From positions 2,944,001 through 3,008,000 of the forward strand of contig CBDCCK010000002.1 of NCBI GenBank assembly GCA_965214835.1: a stretch of DNA of 64,000 bases, read 5' to 3'. Under the pieces are notes generated by a model, which was given only the letters and a program-made list of their open reading frames with translations, made no database searches and was not told where the DNA came from. Positions 6,147-49,880 of this stretch are shown here, one piece after another. Each line of letters begins with the position of its first letter. Within the stretch, counting starts at the first letter, position 1. The stretch comes from Nitrosopumilaceae archaeon (lineage in GTDB: Archaea; Thermoproteota; Nitrososphaeria; Nitrososphaerales; Nitrosopumilaceae). The position numbers and the translations under genes were made by a program.

Positions 6147-6433
6147 GCGTTTTTGAGCAAAACAATAGATGATAAAGTTTTCCGCGCTGTAACATAGATG
6201 AATAACCGTGCCTGAACGCGTAAAAACAGCCAGTTTTTCGTACCTAAAATCGGGGTTATGCATCCATGGTAAAACGCCCGCCAGTAACATGGCAACGTTC
6301 CTTTCTTCTTCTGATCCGTGCCTAGTCGGCCGGGCCGTGCTTTATAGCTAACGCTAGCAATACGCACGAGCCAGTCCTGTCGCACCTGCCAGGGTGCGGG
6401 CGGATCATTGGGTGGGTGGGTGGGGGATGGAAG

Positions 6434-6541
6434 GTGGTAATCCTATGCCGTTCCCGCCAGTTCTGTCACGGCAGGATGTATGTTTTGCTTGCGGCATGTC
6501 ATCGAGTGGTAATCCTATGCCGTTCCCGCCAGTTCTGTCAC
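6434..6541. CRISPR. Single repeat-spacer-repeat unit (36/36/36 bp), CRISPR-like, possibly ectopic
   Basis: GTGGTAATCCTATGCCGTTCCCGCCAGTTCTGTCAC at 6434-6469 and 6506-6541; insert matches reverse complement of 49748-49783 at 34/36. Confidence 0.6.
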
Positions 6542-7624
6542 CCTCTTGATCTTCTTGTCGTACAGGGCAGCATTGCGCGATGAATACGCAGTCTTTGTCG
6601 TCAGCATGTGCCAGATTATCCTGAGCATCTTGTTTGCAACATGCGTTATCGCTATGACGTGGTTGTTGCCGTTCCTTTTGCGGACCCTCTCGTAGAACTC
6701 CCTCATCCTGTCGTCGTGCTGTACGGCGACGTTGGCTATCTGGATCATCAGCCAGTTGATCCTGCGGTTTGCATCCTTTTTCATGTGGCCGTGGTACTCG
6801 CGATCCCCCGACTGGTACACCCGGGGACACATGCCGGCCCAGGACACAAGCTGGTTCGGCGATGGAAACCTGGTTATGTCACCGATCTCTGCTATCAGCA
6901 GCATTGCTGCAAAGGTGTCTATTCCCGTCATGCTCAACAGCAGCTTGGCATCCTCGTTCGATCCTGCCTGTCTTCCTATGTCCTCCCCTGCTTGGTCTAT
7001 CTCCTCTGTGACGTGTACAATCCTCCTAGTGCAGCTTGCCAGTATCCTGTCATCGTTTGGCATGTTCAGCCTGGTATCGGAGATCTTCCGTATGGCCTTC
7101 TTGGAGTACATCGTGGATGCATCTATGGCTATATCGTACTTGTCAAGCCAAGCTGTGCAGCCCGTTTATGACTGCGGTCCTCTCCTGTACCATCCGTATC
7201 CTGTACCTCATCAGCTCCCTGACATCCCTCAGCTCTGCTGATGCCACGTAGCATCGTGGTATCATTCCGGCCCTGAGCGTGTCGGCTATCTTCCTTGCGT
7301 CTATCGGGTCGGTCTTTGCGCTGGTCTCTGATACTATCTTCATCTTGAGGGTGTTTGCAAGCAGTATGGGGATATGCTGATCCTCAAACGCCCTGAACGT
7401 CTTTAGCCACATGTTGCCCGTTGACTCGCATGCGGCCTGGCACTTTTTGTACTCTTTTTTCAGTCGTGCAGCAAGCTTTGATGCCTCCTTGTACGTGTTG
7501 TTATACGAGCCCTCCTCTAGCACGTGTCCCTTGGCGTCGATGACGCACACTGCGCATTTTCTCTTTCCAATGTCTATTCCTATGCTTCTCAATCCTTTTC
7601 TTTCACCTCCTTTTGGATATGGTT

Positions 7625-7765
7625 TGACAGATCAGAAGCTGCATTCATCCATCAGTGCGCGTAGCACAGGAACACAGCAGCTCGGATATCCCCATTCAAC
7701 AGGTAGTGCGCGAAGCACATGCATAACGAGGGGTTGATCCATCACCCTGGCTACGGCGGGGGCGT
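7625..7765 (-). ncRNA. Putative IS110 bridge RNA (two stem/internal-loop/hairpin domains)
   Basis: Minus strand: CCCC-loop-GTGC(TTCGC)GCAC-loop-GGGG then GAGCTGC-loop-GTGC(TACGC)GCAC-loop-GCAGCTT; loop segments match the element junction; ends approximate. Confidence 0.75.
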
Positions 7766-8064
7766 TTTTATCATGTGTTCAACAGGCTACGCGCTGTAAA
7801 AACCTGCAAAAATCTCACCATATTTACGATCTTTTTACTCATCCGTAGATCCATTACGGGGACTTGATCGCCAAATGCAGGGAAAATGACCAAGGCGGTA
7901 CGTGGTGGGCCGATTTGCCCGAGGAGACGCAGGAAGGCATGGAGTGTGAATAGTCCAGCCTCAATAGTTCTGATTGACCCAGTAGCCAGACTCGGCCCGG
8001 ATCGGGGGCTTGCTCGTACTCTTACAGATGCCCTGATGATGCGGGCAGGCATGATGCGTAGTAT

Positions 8065-46712: not shown

Positions 46713-46824
46713 GTGGTTAAAACCCCTGTGCTAGGGTTTTTTTGTAACTTCCTGAGCGCGAGCATAACCGTGACATTACTGCTGACCCGTGGTTAAAACC
46801 CCTGTGCTAGGGTTTTTTTGTAAC
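46713..46824. CRISPR. Single repeat-spacer-repeat unit (36/40/36 bp), CRISPR-like
   Basis: GTGGTTAAAACCCCTGTGCTAGGGTTTTTTTGTAAC at 46713-46748 and 46789-46824; internal AAAACCC/GGGTTTT palindrome. Confidence 0.6.
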
Positions 46825-48649: not shown

Positions 48650-49880
48650 GATGCCAGAAAGAGGTTCAGGGAGCAGAGTCGAGGATTCCGGCGATGCGGC
48701 CAGGGGCAAAAAACACGGCCCTCCGTGCGGACACCTGGGCGTATCTCACTGCAACCGGCCGTCGATGACATTAATGTACGATCTTGATTCAATGGTGTGC
48801 GTGTGGTGCGGCGCCCCGATAAGGATGATCAAGCCGCTCAACAAGCTTGTGAGCGACCCGGACGGCTCCATGCGCATGCTCACTGTCAATGCCATCATCC
48901 AAGACGCGGTCTGTCCCCAATGCGGCAGCGAGGTCGCCGCGGCAACCCCCGTCTCTAGGCGGCACGTCGCTTGGGCCCGTCTCGCTTTAATCATGAATGT
49001 TCTTTGAGAGGGGAAGCACCGGCAGAGACATTGCAGGGTACTTTTTGTGCCTGTTCGGATTCAAGATGGCCACAAACACGGTGACCGGCGCGCGGCATGC
49101 AGTGGCAAAGGCACTCCGACAGAGCATGATCCCGCACATGCAGTCATTCATTGCTGCCCGGCAGAGGATACAGATGGACGAGGCCGGGTTCAAGCGCGGC
49201 GACGGACGCATGGGGTACGTCTGGGCGCTCAACTGCGCGGGGGCATGCTTTGCAGTCTTTGCAGACTCCAGATCCTCGGAGGTTCTGCATGCATACTTTG
49301 GATGGCTGGATTCCAGTACCCCCATAGCCGTCGACGGGCTGTCCCAGTACAAGCGACTCTTTACGATAATCCGGAGGTGCCTGAGGCATCTTCTGGCATA
49401 TGTAGAACGGATTGCCGTCAGGAGGCCCGGAGGCGATGAAATACGGTATGACTCGCTGCTTGAGTTTTGCAATAGGATAAAGTCAGGACGCTTGCGTCGC
49501 TTACATATATGGAGCTTTCAAGGGAGGCACATAAAATAATCACCGCATGCGGGGACGGCCACGTGCGCAAGCACCTGTTAAATTCCATATACAACATGTT
49601 TACGTTTATGGCGTACCCGGGAATGCCGCCGCACAACAACGATACCGAGCGGTGCATACGCGGCGGGATCATATACCCTAGCGCAATGCGCGCCACAAGA
49701 TCGTGACCGACGTGGGAAGGGAGGTACTTTCTGCGCTGCTGGCGTTTTCGACGACATGCCGCAAGCAGAACATACATCCTGCCAGGGGACTCTTGGAATA
49801 CCAGCGAGATCCAGACTGTGGGGAAGCAGTATCATGCAGGATTTTTCCTCACCCCGTTTTGAAAGAGTCGATCATGCAGG
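48650..49880 (+). pseudogene. IS66-family transposase pseudogene
   Basis: Zinc finger, QMDEAG, CLRHLL, PPHNNDTERCIR across frames. Confidence 0.82.

What the first reader, a model, noticed from the sequence alone, without database searches (positions are those of the whole stretch)
6434..6541. 36-bp repeat / 36-bp spacer / 36-bp repeat inside IS110, with the spacer matching an IS66 transposase
Seen: exact repeat GTGGTAATCCTATGCCGTTCCCGCCAGTTCTGTCAC at 6434-6469 and 6506-6541. The insert 6470-6505, reverse-complemented (TCGATGACATGCCGCAAGCAAAACATACATCCTGCC), matches 49748-49783 in the IS66 pseudogene at 34/36, with TTT immediately 5' of the match. The repeat is the IS110 transposase's own last codons (VTELAGTA*) plus 9 bp. 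Established: Cas1-Cas2 inserts roughly 30-40 bp fragments and duplicates one repeat length; TTN PAMs occur in several type I subtypes (e.g. I-G, I-B). Inference: either an in vivo off-target spacer integration into a pseudo-repeat, or a mini-array carried by one IS and directed at a rival IS family.
Basis: partly seen in the sequence, partly recalled or inferred. Interest (0 to 1): 0.92.

Follow-up and report, generated by a model that had tools for sequence, protein, structure and literature searches.

The report
Stray CRISPR spacer inserted inside an IS110
A 36-base piece of an IS66 transposon was pasted, with a 36-base target duplication, into one copy of an IS110 element by the cell's own CRISPR memory-writing enzymes working outside the CRISPR array, and about 45 similar stray insertions lie elsewhere in this archaeal genome.

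Summary

- **Insertion, not ancestral structure:** nine other copies of this IS110 carry one copy of the 36-mer and no insert.
- **Donor:** the insert is 36/36 identical to six IS66-family copies, each with TTC directly 5'.
- **Enzyme and ruler:** the genome has one Cas1, a type I-G Cas4/Cas1 fusion with Cas2. It sits beside an array of 148 identical 36-bp repeats with spacers mostly 36-39 bp. I-G Cas4/1 is published to select TTN PAMs and 36-bp spacers (PMC6547450).
- **Not unique:** a genome-wide scan found 43 isolated units at periods 71-76 bp, against 15 across the 65 other periods tested.
  - 20 of the 46-unit catalogue have empty paralogues.
  - 9 of 11 full-length donors carry TTN.
  - Four donors lie in the orc1/cdc6-PolD region.

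The "mini-array against a rival IS" reading is not supported. The duplicated 36-mer resembles the native repeat no better than chance (10/36), has no hairpin, and holds one spacer. The mechanism is known. A natural genome carrying dozens of such events appears unreported in the searched library.

The parts
6434..6469 (.). Copy 1 of the duplicated 36-bp target (pseudo-repeat). It lies downstream of the transposase stop, in the 3' non-coding part of the IS110 copy.
   Evidence: Exact 36/36 match to 6506-6541. It is present once in 9 other IS110 copies.
6470..6505 (-). Inserted 36-bp spacer. Read on the minus strand (TCGATGAC...CCTGCC) it is the PAM-adjacent strand of the IS66 protospacer.
   Evidence: 36/36 identical to six IS66-family copies, each with ...gacgTTC directly 5' on this strand. 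Absent from the 9 empty IS110 copies.
6506..6541 (.). Copy 2 of the duplicated 36-bp target. It holds the last 8 codons, the stop (6515-6517) and 9 bp of the IS110 C-terminal ORF, so the ORF is unchanged.
6254..7789 (-). The IS110-family copy that received the insertion. It is about 1464 bp without the 72-bp gain.
   Evidence: Homology with other copies starts at window 6250-6258 and ends at 7783-7794. The ORFs match PF01548 and PF02371.
7143..7592 (-). IS110 transposase, N-terminal DEDD part (149 aa).
   Evidence: PF01548, E 1.1e-29.
6515..7111 (-). IS110 transposase, C-terminal part (198 aa), in another frame than the N-terminal part.
   Evidence: PF02371, E 2.1e-26. ORF listed.
49748..49783 (+). 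Degenerate IS66-family copy of the protospacer (34/36, TTT 5'). It is not the donor.
46713..46824 (.). A second off-target unit in the window: 36-bp duplication (46713-46748 and 46789-46824) around a 40-bp insert (46749-46788).
   Evidence: No donor in the genome. No exact match in viral contigs.

Best explanation
The unit is the product of one off-target (non-array) spacer integration by the genome's own type I-G adaptation module, the Cas4/Cas1 fusion plus Cas2.

Inferred sequence of events: a 36-bp prespacer was cut from an IS66-family copy next to a TTC PAM. Its two 3' ends then attacked opposite strands of an IS110 copy at two G/C positions 36 bp apart, which is the spacing the integrase normally uses across its own 36-bp repeat. 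Gap repair duplicated the 36 bp between the two cuts, giving repeat-spacer-repeat.

The result is most likely an inert scar:
- it sits just after the transposase stop codon, so the coding sequence is unchanged;
- the duplicated 36-mer has neither the sequence nor the hairpin of the native repeat, so it should not be processed into crRNA.

Shown here: the insertion and its polarity, the donor, the PAM, the ruler length, the presence of the enzyme, and the genome-wide class of like events. Inferred: that Cas4/1-Cas2 catalysed it, and that the unit is non-functional.
For: 1. **Insertion plus duplication.** 9 paralogous IS110 copies have a single 36-mer and no insert, and 0 copies are filled. A 6-sequence alignment shows a clean 72-bp gain.
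2. **Ruler.** The native array at C2:2482178-2492954 has 148 of 148 identical 36-bp repeats.
3. **Insert length.** Native spacers are 37 bp (54), 36 bp (45), 38 bp (18) and 39 bp (16) of 147. The insert is 36 bp.
4. **Donor and PAM.** There are six 36/36 donors, all with TTC 5'. Type I-U/I-G Cas4/1-Cas2 selects TTN and mostly 36-bp spacers (PMC6547450, abstract and passages).
5. **Enzyme.** The genome gives one Cas1 match. It is a 566-aa Cas4/Cas1 fusion scoring 754.8 bits on NF049935 (cut-off 560), with Cas2 next to it. cas7_GSU0053 lies beyond the array.
6. **A class of like events.**
   - Periods 71-76 hold 43 units, against 15 in the 65 other periods.
   - Exact-run lengths are 36 (14 units), 37 (12), 38 (3) and 39 (2). 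This fits a fixed 36-bp duplication plus chance microhomology (chi-square p 0.37).
   - 20 units have empty paralogues.
   - 9 of 11 full-length donors have TTN directly 5', and the other 2 have it displaced by one base. P is at most 5e-5.
7. **Cut sites.** 27 of 28 duplication ends in the 14 exact-36 units start with G or C (p 4e-7). P. furiosus Cas1-Cas2 likewise uses G/C positions one repeat length apart at non-CRISPR sites (PMC6698737).
8. **Self-derived inserts.** Chromosome-derived inserts number 11 of 43 off-target units but 0 of 154 native spacers (Fisher 1.8e-8). This is expected if only array spacers cause autoimmunity.
9. **Negative control.** The same scan on 800 kb of a congener gave only 2 hits at these periods.
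Against: - No direct evidence that Cas4/1-Cas2 did it. Catalysis is inferred from footprints.
- The focal 36-mer is only 10/36 identical to the native repeat, so what drew the integrase there is unclear beyond G/C ends and an AGG|G flank.
- PAM-defined orientation agrees with the leader-like side in only 6 of 9 units, which is not significant (my count).
- Two of the 11 donors have the TTN displaced by one base.
- Public-run support is weak. Only short contigs were available. The one contig crossing the insert/copy-2 junction has 29 letters on each side, below the tool's 31-letter bar. The best holder may be the source sample.
Confidence: 0.9

Rival explanations
1. A functional mini-CRISPR array carried by the IS110 and directed against IS66 elements. 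Its transcript would be processed to a crRNA that guides the host I-G effector against the rival IS.
For: The spacer lies on the transposase-sense strand just after the stop codon, so it would be co-transcribed. On that strand it has the crRNA-sense orientation relative to the TTC PAM. Type I-G effector genes are present.
Against: - Only 1 of the 10 aligned IS110 copies (this one plus the 9 empty ones) has it.
- The 36-mer is 10/36 identical to the native repeat, against a random mean of 10.4.
- It has no stable hairpin (-4.4 kcal/mol, z -0.07), whereas the native repeat folds at -11.7 kcal/mol (z -3.0).
- It lacks the ATTGAAGC 3' handle.
- Six perfect TTC-flanked targets persist in the chromosome. 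A working crRNA should make these lethal.
- About 45 like units hold unrelated inserts, and none holds two different spacers.
Confidence: 0.03
2. A Cas-independent rearrangement, such as replication template switching or microhomology-mediated insertion, that copied an IS66 fragment and happened to duplicate 36 bp.
For: One base of identity between donor flank and target at each junction (C and G).
Against: - One-base microhomology is at chance level.
- Template switching does not predict a duplication equal to the CRISPR repeat length, an insert length matching native spacers, or a TTN PAM in 9 of 11 donors.
- It does not predict a sharp peak of 43 units at periods 71-76.
Confidence: 0.03
3. 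Insertion by another integrase or transposase, for example a casposase-like enzyme or an IS-encoded enzyme, that makes 36-bp target duplications.
For: The genome is rich in IS elements, and 20 units lie in multi-copy DNA.
Against: - The inserts are all different and are internal fragments without terminal repeats.
- Only one Cas1-family gene is found.
- From recall, no transposase is known to give 36-bp duplications around inserts of 36-40 bp.
Confidence: 0.02
4. Assembly artefact in a repeated element.
For: The IS110 is multi-copy. Public contigs are fragmented here and no laid record spans the whole unit.
Against: - The unit is 108 bp and the assembly has only two contigs.
- A 58-nt contig in run X1 matches 6477-6534 without differences.
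- An artefact would not produce PAM-flanked donors, or 43 units with one ruler length.
Confidence: 0.01

Closest known systems
Non-canonical (off-target) spacer integration by Cas1-Cas2, 'neo-CRISPR' (Nivala, Shipman and Church 2018, Nat Microbiol). The paper is not held. I know it from passages in bioRxiv 10.1101/148544 and PMC7054753, and from recall.
   Same: A spacer-sized fragment is inserted outside the array with duplication of one repeat length, giving repeat-spacer-repeat at a non-CRISPR site.
   Different: - That work used E. coli type I-E with over-produced Cas1-Cas2. According to the passage in 10.1101/148544, evidence in two other species was only circumstantial.
- Here the system is a native archaeal type I-G Cas4/1-Cas2 with no manipulation.
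- There are about 46 fixed events in one genome, with donors, PAMs and empty alleles recoverable.
In vitro off-target full-site integration by Pyrococcus furiosus Cas1-Cas2 (PMC6698737; abstract and passages).
   Same: Paired cuts on opposite strands one repeat length apart, at G and/or C, at non-CRISPR sequences. No strong orientation preference.
   Different: That was on plasmid DNA in vitro with a 30-bp ruler. Here the events are chromosomal and in vivo with a 36-bp ruler, and one flank shows a CAGG|G-like motif.
Type I-U/I-G Cas4/1-Cas2 adaptation of Geobacter sulfurreducens (PMC6547450; abstract and passages).
   Same: Cas4/Cas1 fusion, TTN PAM selection, predominant 36-bp spacers. Chromosomal spacers there were enriched at oriC, and four donors here lie by orc1/cdc6.
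   Different: That study followed integration into the array in an E. coli host. Off-target sites were not described in the passages I read.
Orphan or mini CRISPR arrays on mobile elements (recalled from the literature, not searched here).
   Same: A repeat-spacer-repeat carried by a mobile element, with the spacer matching another mobile element.
   Different: Those arrays use repeats that match a host CRISPR repeat so host Cas proteins can process them. The focal 36-mer does not (10/36).

Membership tests
Off-target Cas1-Cas2 spacer integration product | Target duplication equal to the native CRISPR repeat length | tested here: met
   The duplication is exactly 36 bp. The native repeat is 36 bp in 148 of 148 copies.
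Off-target Cas1-Cas2 spacer integration product | Insert length within the native spacer length range | tested here: met
   The insert is 36 bp. 45 of 147 native spacers are 36 bp, and the main range is 35-40 bp.
Off-target Cas1-Cas2 spacer integration product | Insert copied from a protospacer flanked by the system's PAM | tested here: met
   Six 36/36 donors with TTC. TTN is the I-U/I-G PAM (PMC6547450). 9 of 11 donors across the class have TTN.
Off-target Cas1-Cas2 spacer integration product | Pre-insertion (empty) allele with a single copy of the duplicated sequence | tested here: met
   9 empty paralogous IS110 copies and 0 filled. Alignment.
Off-target Cas1-Cas2 spacer integration product | An intact Cas1-Cas2 module in the same genome | tested here: met
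   One Cas1 match with no stops. NF049935 scores 754.8 bits over the 560 cut-off across profile positions 2-546 of 546. Cas2 matches TIGR01573 and PF09827.
Off-target Cas1-Cas2 spacer integration product | Catalysis by that module shown directly | not testable with these tools
   Needs an integration assay or genetics.
Functional CRISPR (mini-)array | Repeat with the sequence or structure recognised by the system's processing nuclease | tested here: not met
   10/36 identity to the native repeat, against a random mean of 10.4. No hairpin: -4.4 kcal/mol, z -0.07, versus -11.7 kcal/mol, z -3.0 for the native repeat.
Functional CRISPR (mini-)array | Leader-driven growth (two or more different spacers) | tested here: not met
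   The focal unit has one spacer. No off-target unit holds two different spacers. Three loci repeat the same spacer twice.
Functional CRISPR (mini-)array | Transcription and processing into crRNA | not testable with these tools
   No RNA run was available.
Type I-G (formerly I-U) CRISPR-Cas | Cas4/Cas1 fusion of the I-G kind | tested here: met
   NF049935 cas4g_cas1g at 754.8 bits, over the cut-off. PF01930 plus PF01867 in one 566-aa ORF.
Type I-G (formerly I-U) CRISPR-Cas | Effector genes: Cas7 of the GSU0053 kind, Cas3, Cas8u/Csx17 and Cas5/6 | tested here: inconclusive
   TIGR02570 scores 143 bits, over the cut-off, at C2:2497518. A cas3_core match next to the array scores 68 bits, below the 102 cut-off. 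Csx17 and Cas5/6 were not searched.
IS110 family (recipient element) | DEDD transposase N-domain plus IS116/IS110/IS902 C-domain | tested here: met
   PF01548 at E 1.1e-29 and PF02371 at E 2.1e-26, in two frames.
IS66 family (donor element) | DDE_Tnp_IS66 transposase | tested here: met
   PF03050 at E 6.2e-15 in the 373-aa ORF of the 2046-bp donor element. The protospacer lies in the adjoining 165-aa ORF, which has no Pfam hit of its own.

The most novel reading that the evidence does not exclude
This genome is a natural, largely selection-free record of naive CRISPR adaptation. The type I-G Cas4/1-Cas2 integrase has written about 46 spacers into ordinary chromosomal DNA, several of them inside open reading frames as in-frame 24-25-codon insertions. 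Because these spacers are not expressed as crRNA, self-derived ones survive. They therefore expose the enzyme's raw preferences: the TTN PAM, a hotspot at the orc1/cdc6-PolD (origin) region, G/C cut sites 36 bp apart, and possibly a preference for targets near the cas locus. On this reading Cas1-Cas2 would be a measurable endogenous mutagen and a source of protein insertions and of raw material for new arrays in wild archaea.
Probability: 0.6. Interest if true: 0.85.

Novelty: new member of a known kind. Interest (0 to 1): 0.75.

Why it matters
Off-target integration by Cas1-Cas2 has been shown with over-produced enzyme in E. coli and in vitro. According to the passage I read (10.1101/148544), natural evidence was circumstantial.

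Here a single wild genome supplies a fully documented case: empty allele, donor, PAM, ruler length and enzyme. It also supplies about 45 more. That makes several questions directly testable from sequence alone:
- what an unselected spacer repertoire looks like, including the share of self-derived spacers, origin-proximal sampling and PAM fidelity;
- which DNA features attract the integrase in the absence of a leader;
- how much genome damage or innovation adaptation causes;
- whether new arrays can arise this way.

For the focal unit itself, the practical message is that it is a scar, not an IS-borne weapon.

Tried and rejected
**IS-versus-IS mini-array.** Rejected for the reasons given under rival explanations.

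**Antisense regulation of IS66 by the IS110 3' UTR.** Rejected. The copy in the IS110 mRNA sense strand has the same sense as the IS66 transposase ORF.

**IS110 non-coding (bridge-type) RNA disrupted by the insert.** Rfam gave 0 matches at E up to 1 on window 6150-7900. Nothing can be said either way.

**Similarity of target sites to the native repeat tail (ATTGAAGC).** Oriented mean 2.46 of 8, opposite orientation 2.54, control 1.90. There is no orientation-specific signal, so I dropped it.

**Orientation rule (PAM end next to the leader-like side).** 6 of 9, not significant (my count).

**Proximity of events to the cas locus.** The KS test gives p 3.7e-5. The matched control, comparing each filled copy with its empty paralogues, gives mean rank 0.376 and Wilcoxon p 0.13. 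I keep this only as a lead.

**Period-156 peak.** 15 units are tandem coding repeats, not integration events.

**Units excluded from the class.**
- Three catalogue entries are not events: C2:35551 (2 filled paralogues, no empty one), C2:1736693 (a paralogue shares the whole structure) and C2:1973493 (part of a tandem array).
- Five further units with short or poorly bounded exact runs (1301520, 2927710, 2139397, 2037185, 2260966) were left out of the orientation analysis only.

**Public runs.**
- No RNA holder was listed.
- Only short Logan contigs could be laid, and no record spans the whole unit.
- The insert/copy-2 junction is covered by a 58-nt contig with 29 letters on each side, under the tool's 31-letter bar.
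- No listed piece crosses the copy-1/insert junction; 103 further pieces were not shown.
- A 396-nt contig of X6 shows the empty form, as expected from the other IS110 copies.

**Foreign origin of the second window spacer.** 0 exact matches in viral contigs.

**Relatives.** A search with one unit (L012) showed it lies in another multi-copy element with empty copies in this same genome. In 800 kb of congener G004, only 1 clean unit and 1 low-complexity hit were found. The rest of G004 and all of G003 were not scanned.

**Papers.**
- Nivala 2018 is not held, and I saw nothing of its text.
- No supplementary files were opened; those of PMC6547450 and PMC6698737 might bear on off-target sites.
- My statement that dozens of natural events are unreported rests on three full-text searches of the held library only.

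Full report
**1. The observation**

Window 6434-6469 and 6506-6541 are the same 36 bases, and 36 other bases lie between them. The bases just outside the two copies differ, so the duplication is exactly 36 bp. The second copy holds the last eight codons, the stop codon and nine further bases of ORF 6515-7111(-). That ORF is the C-terminal part of an IS110-family transposase (PF02371). The N-terminal DEDD part (PF01548) is ORF 7143-7592(-), in another frame.

**2. It is an insertion with a target duplication**

The window is G000:C2:2944001-3008000 in a genome of two contigs. BLAST of the region against the genome finds the IS110 in about ten further copies. In these, the sequences left and right of the unit abut through a single copy of the 36-mer. 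A paired-HSP test counts 9 empty and 0 filled paralogues. An alignment with five of them shows one clean 72-bp gain in the window copy. The element runs from about window 6254 to 7789.

**3. The donor**

The insert has six 36/36 matches in the genome, at C2:612035, 1586433, 1618200, 2728480, 2825411 and 2847544. All six have the same flanks. Read on the strand TCGATGAC...CCTGCC, they are preceded by ...GACGTTC. These matches lie in a 2046-bp repeated element whose 373-aa ORF matches DDE_Tnp_IS66. The donor flanks share only one base with the target on each side. That is chance-level microhomology.

**4. The enzyme and its ruler**

The genome gives one match to Cas1. It is a 566-aa Cas4/Cas1 fusion that scores 754.8 bits on NCBIfam cas4g_cas1g (cut-off 560), and Cas2 follows it. 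Next comes an array of 148 identical 36-bp repeats (ATTTCC...ATTGAAGC). Of its 147 spacers, 54 are 37 bp, 45 are 36 bp, 18 are 38 bp and 16 are 39 bp. Beyond the array lie a cas3-like gene, which scores below its family cut-off, and a cas7_GSU0053 gene, which scores over its cut-off.

This is a type I-G (formerly I-U) locus. For the Geobacter I-U module, the paper PMC6547450 (abstract and passages) reports three relevant things:
- a predominant spacer length of 36 bp;
- TTN upstream of 50% of unique and over 80% of all new spacers;
- enrichment of chromosomal spacers at oriC.

So the duplication length, the insert length and the PAM of the focal unit are those of this genome's own adaptation machinery.

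**5. The unit is one of many**

I scanned the genome for isolated direct repeats at every period from 50 to 120 bp. The criteria were at least 33 of 36 matching bases, unmatched flanks, and no neighbouring repeat within 300 bp. The scan gave 43 unique units at periods 71-76 (3, 16, 10, 4, 8 and 2). It gave 15 in total at the 65 other periods.

With three units added back (two lie 200 bp apart in a diverged IS110 copy, and one was taken), the catalogue has 46 entries. Three of these are probably not events.

- **Run lengths.** Exact runs are 36 bp in 14 units, 37 in 12, 38 in 3 and 39 in 2. A fixed 36-bp duplication plus chance extension predicts this distribution (chi-square p 0.37).
- **Empty alleles.** 20 units lie in multi-copy DNA whose other copies are empty. 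Only one such unit also has a filled paralogue.
- **Repeated spacers.** Three further loci show repeat-spacer-repeat-spacer-repeat with the same spacer twice, as expected from unequal recombination. No unit holds two different spacers.
- **Negative control.** The same scan on 800 kb around the CRISPR locus of a congener found one clean 36/36/36 unit and one low-complexity hit. That congener has the same kind of Cas4/1 fusion and a 36-bp repeat. The scan therefore does not generate the peak by itself, and this genome is unusually rich in units.

**6. Donors and PAMs across the class**

Eleven units have a full-length donor elsewhere in the chromosome.
- Nine have TTN directly 5' of the donor-identical block in one orientation. 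I allowed for the 0-2-base register ambiguity that microhomology leaves.
  - TTC in five: 2332658, 2453982, the focal 2950434, 3125695 and 3161274.
  - TTG in two: 1033730 and 2445029.
  - TTT in one: 1301520.
  - TTG or TTT in one: 2245958.
- In the other two (1625426 and 2927710) the TTN is displaced by one base.
- With 2 to 4 chances per unit, the binomial probability is 2e-7 to 5e-5.

Four donors (three full-length, one partial) lie within 6.3 kb at C2:900193-906409. This region holds an Orc1/Cdc6 gene and the small subunit of DNA polymerase D. The cumulative GC skew has its global maximum in the 880-kb bin. From recall, this gene pair marks replication origins in several archaea. The clustering has a window-corrected Poisson p of about 1e-5.

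The other roughly 30 inserts have no match in the genome, including the 13-kb contig C1. They are presumably foreign.

**7. Self versus non-self**

None of the 154 spacers in the two native arrays has a full chromosomal match. One spacer matches contig C1 at 36/37, with the mismatch at the PAM-proximal base and CGTTC in front. One spacer of the small array matches C2:130305 at 34/36. By contrast, 11 of 43 off-target inserts are chromosomal (Fisher 1.8e-8). This fits the idea that array spacers against the chromosome are purged by autoimmunity, whereas off-target inserts are not expressed as guides.

**8. What the integrase seems to read at off-target sites**

In the 14 units with an exact 36-bp run, 27 of 28 duplication ends begin with G or C (G in 16; p 4e-7). 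The four bases outside the cut tend to be C-A-G-G (15, 15, 16 and 13 of 28). The native leader ends ...ACGGG before the first repeat. The focal unit has ...AAGAGG|GTGACAG on the minus strand. P. furiosus Cas1-Cas2 likewise prefers G/C positions one repeat length apart at non-CRISPR sites (PMC6698737). Beyond that, the resemblance to the native repeat is weak. The mean best-orientation identity is 12.2 of 36, against 10.4 for random sites. The focal 36-mer scores 10. No orientation rule could be shown (6 of 9).

**9. Function of the focal unit**

The native repeat folds into a 7-bp hairpin (-11.7 kcal/mol, z -3.0). The focal 36-mer does not fold on either strand (-4.4 and -3.7 kcal/mol, z about -0.1). 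The unit has one spacer. Only one of the aligned IS110 copies carries it. Six perfect PAM-flanked targets coexist with it in the chromosome. I therefore read it as an inert scar. It is neutral for the transposase ORF because the duplication restores the C-terminus and the stop codon.

**10. Other leads**

- **In-frame periods.** Periods that keep the reading frame (72 and 75) make up 26 of 46 units. The native spacer lengths predict 41.5% (p 0.028). Of the 13 units inside open frames of at least 200 codons, 9 are in-frame.
- **Position in the genome.** Units lie closer to the cas locus than a uniform spread predicts: median 390 kb versus 802 kb, KS p 3.7e-5, and 27 of 46 within 500 kb. The matched comparison of each filled copy with its empty paralogues is not significant (p 0.13). 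IS density may explain part of the signal.

**11. Comparison with what is known, and novelty**

The mechanism is the non-canonical spacer integration described by Nivala et al. 2018. I could not read that paper. Passages in 10.1101/148544 and PMC7054753 say two things about it:
- it found off-target integration in E. coli over-producing Cas1-Cas2;
- it found circumstantial evidence in two other species.

Three full-text searches returned no report of a wild genome with dozens of such events, or of off-target integration by a type I-G module. This holds only for the held library. I file the focal unit as a new member of a known kind. The genome-wide set is the part a specialist would find surprising.

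**12. Limits**

- Catalysis by Cas4/1-Cas2 is inferred, not shown.
- Read-level confirmation is weak.
- No RNA data were available.
- The catalogue misses old, diverged units and depends on my thresholds.
- About 1.4 of the units at periods 71-76 are expected to be background.

Noticed in passing
window 46713-46824: A second off-target unit in the window. A 36-bp duplication (GTGGTTAAAACC...TTTGTAAC, which contains a hairpin-like palindrome) surrounds a 40-bp insert with no donor in the genome.
   Followed up: partly
G000:C2, genome-wide (for example 204691, 558201, 737481, 1625426, 2445029, 2793872, 3161274): About 46 isolated repeat-spacer-repeat units with 36-bp duplications and 35-40-bp inserts. 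20 of them have empty paralogues in the same genome.
   Followed up: yes
G000:C2:900193-906409: Four off-target inserts were copied from a 6.3-kb stretch holding orc1/cdc6 and the DNA polymerase D small subunit. The global maximum of cumulative GC skew lies in the 880-kb bin. This is probably a replication origin acting as a spacer-acquisition hotspot.
   Followed up: partly
G000:C2:2513205, 2610439, 2832639: Three loci with repeat-spacer-repeat-spacer-repeat in which the same spacer occurs twice. They look like off-target units expanded by unequal recombination or slippage.
   Followed up: partly
G000:C2:1300988-1302401: A diverged IS110 copy carries two separate off-target units about 200 bp apart (periods 72 and 73). 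One insert has a TTT-flanked donor at C2:2898590-2898627.
   Followed up: partly
G000:C2, positions relative to 2481000: Off-target units are concentrated near the CRISPR-cas locus: 14 within 300 kb on the low-coordinate side and 3 on the other. A matched control using empty paralogues is not significant.
   Followed up: partly
window 6515-7592 (-) and all other copies: The IS110 transposase is split into two frames (149 aa and 198 aa). The other copies align over 1284-1289 bp, most without gaps, so the split appears shared. It could be a shared frameshift or programmed frameshifting.
   Followed up: no
G000:C1:6366-6401: The 13-kb second contig is matched 36/37 by native spacer 41. The single mismatch is at the PAM-proximal base and CGTTC lies in front. 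This looks like an escape variant of a targeted plasmid or virus.
   Followed up: no
G000:C2:1475000-1563000, 2217000 and other sites: Many 156-bp-period tandem coding repeats (GLQIVDV...DP-type, 52 residues) produced a second peak in the period scan. They are unrelated to CRISPR.
   Followed up: partly
G000:C2:135821-136367 (-): A second small array of 8 repeats with two variant repeat sequences of the same family. Its cas context was not examined.
   Followed up: no
L-loci of G004:C1:1938378: A congener with its own Cas4g/Cas1g and 36-bp repeat has one clean 36/36/36 unit in the 800 kb scanned. The process occurs there too, but at far lower density.
   Followed up: partly
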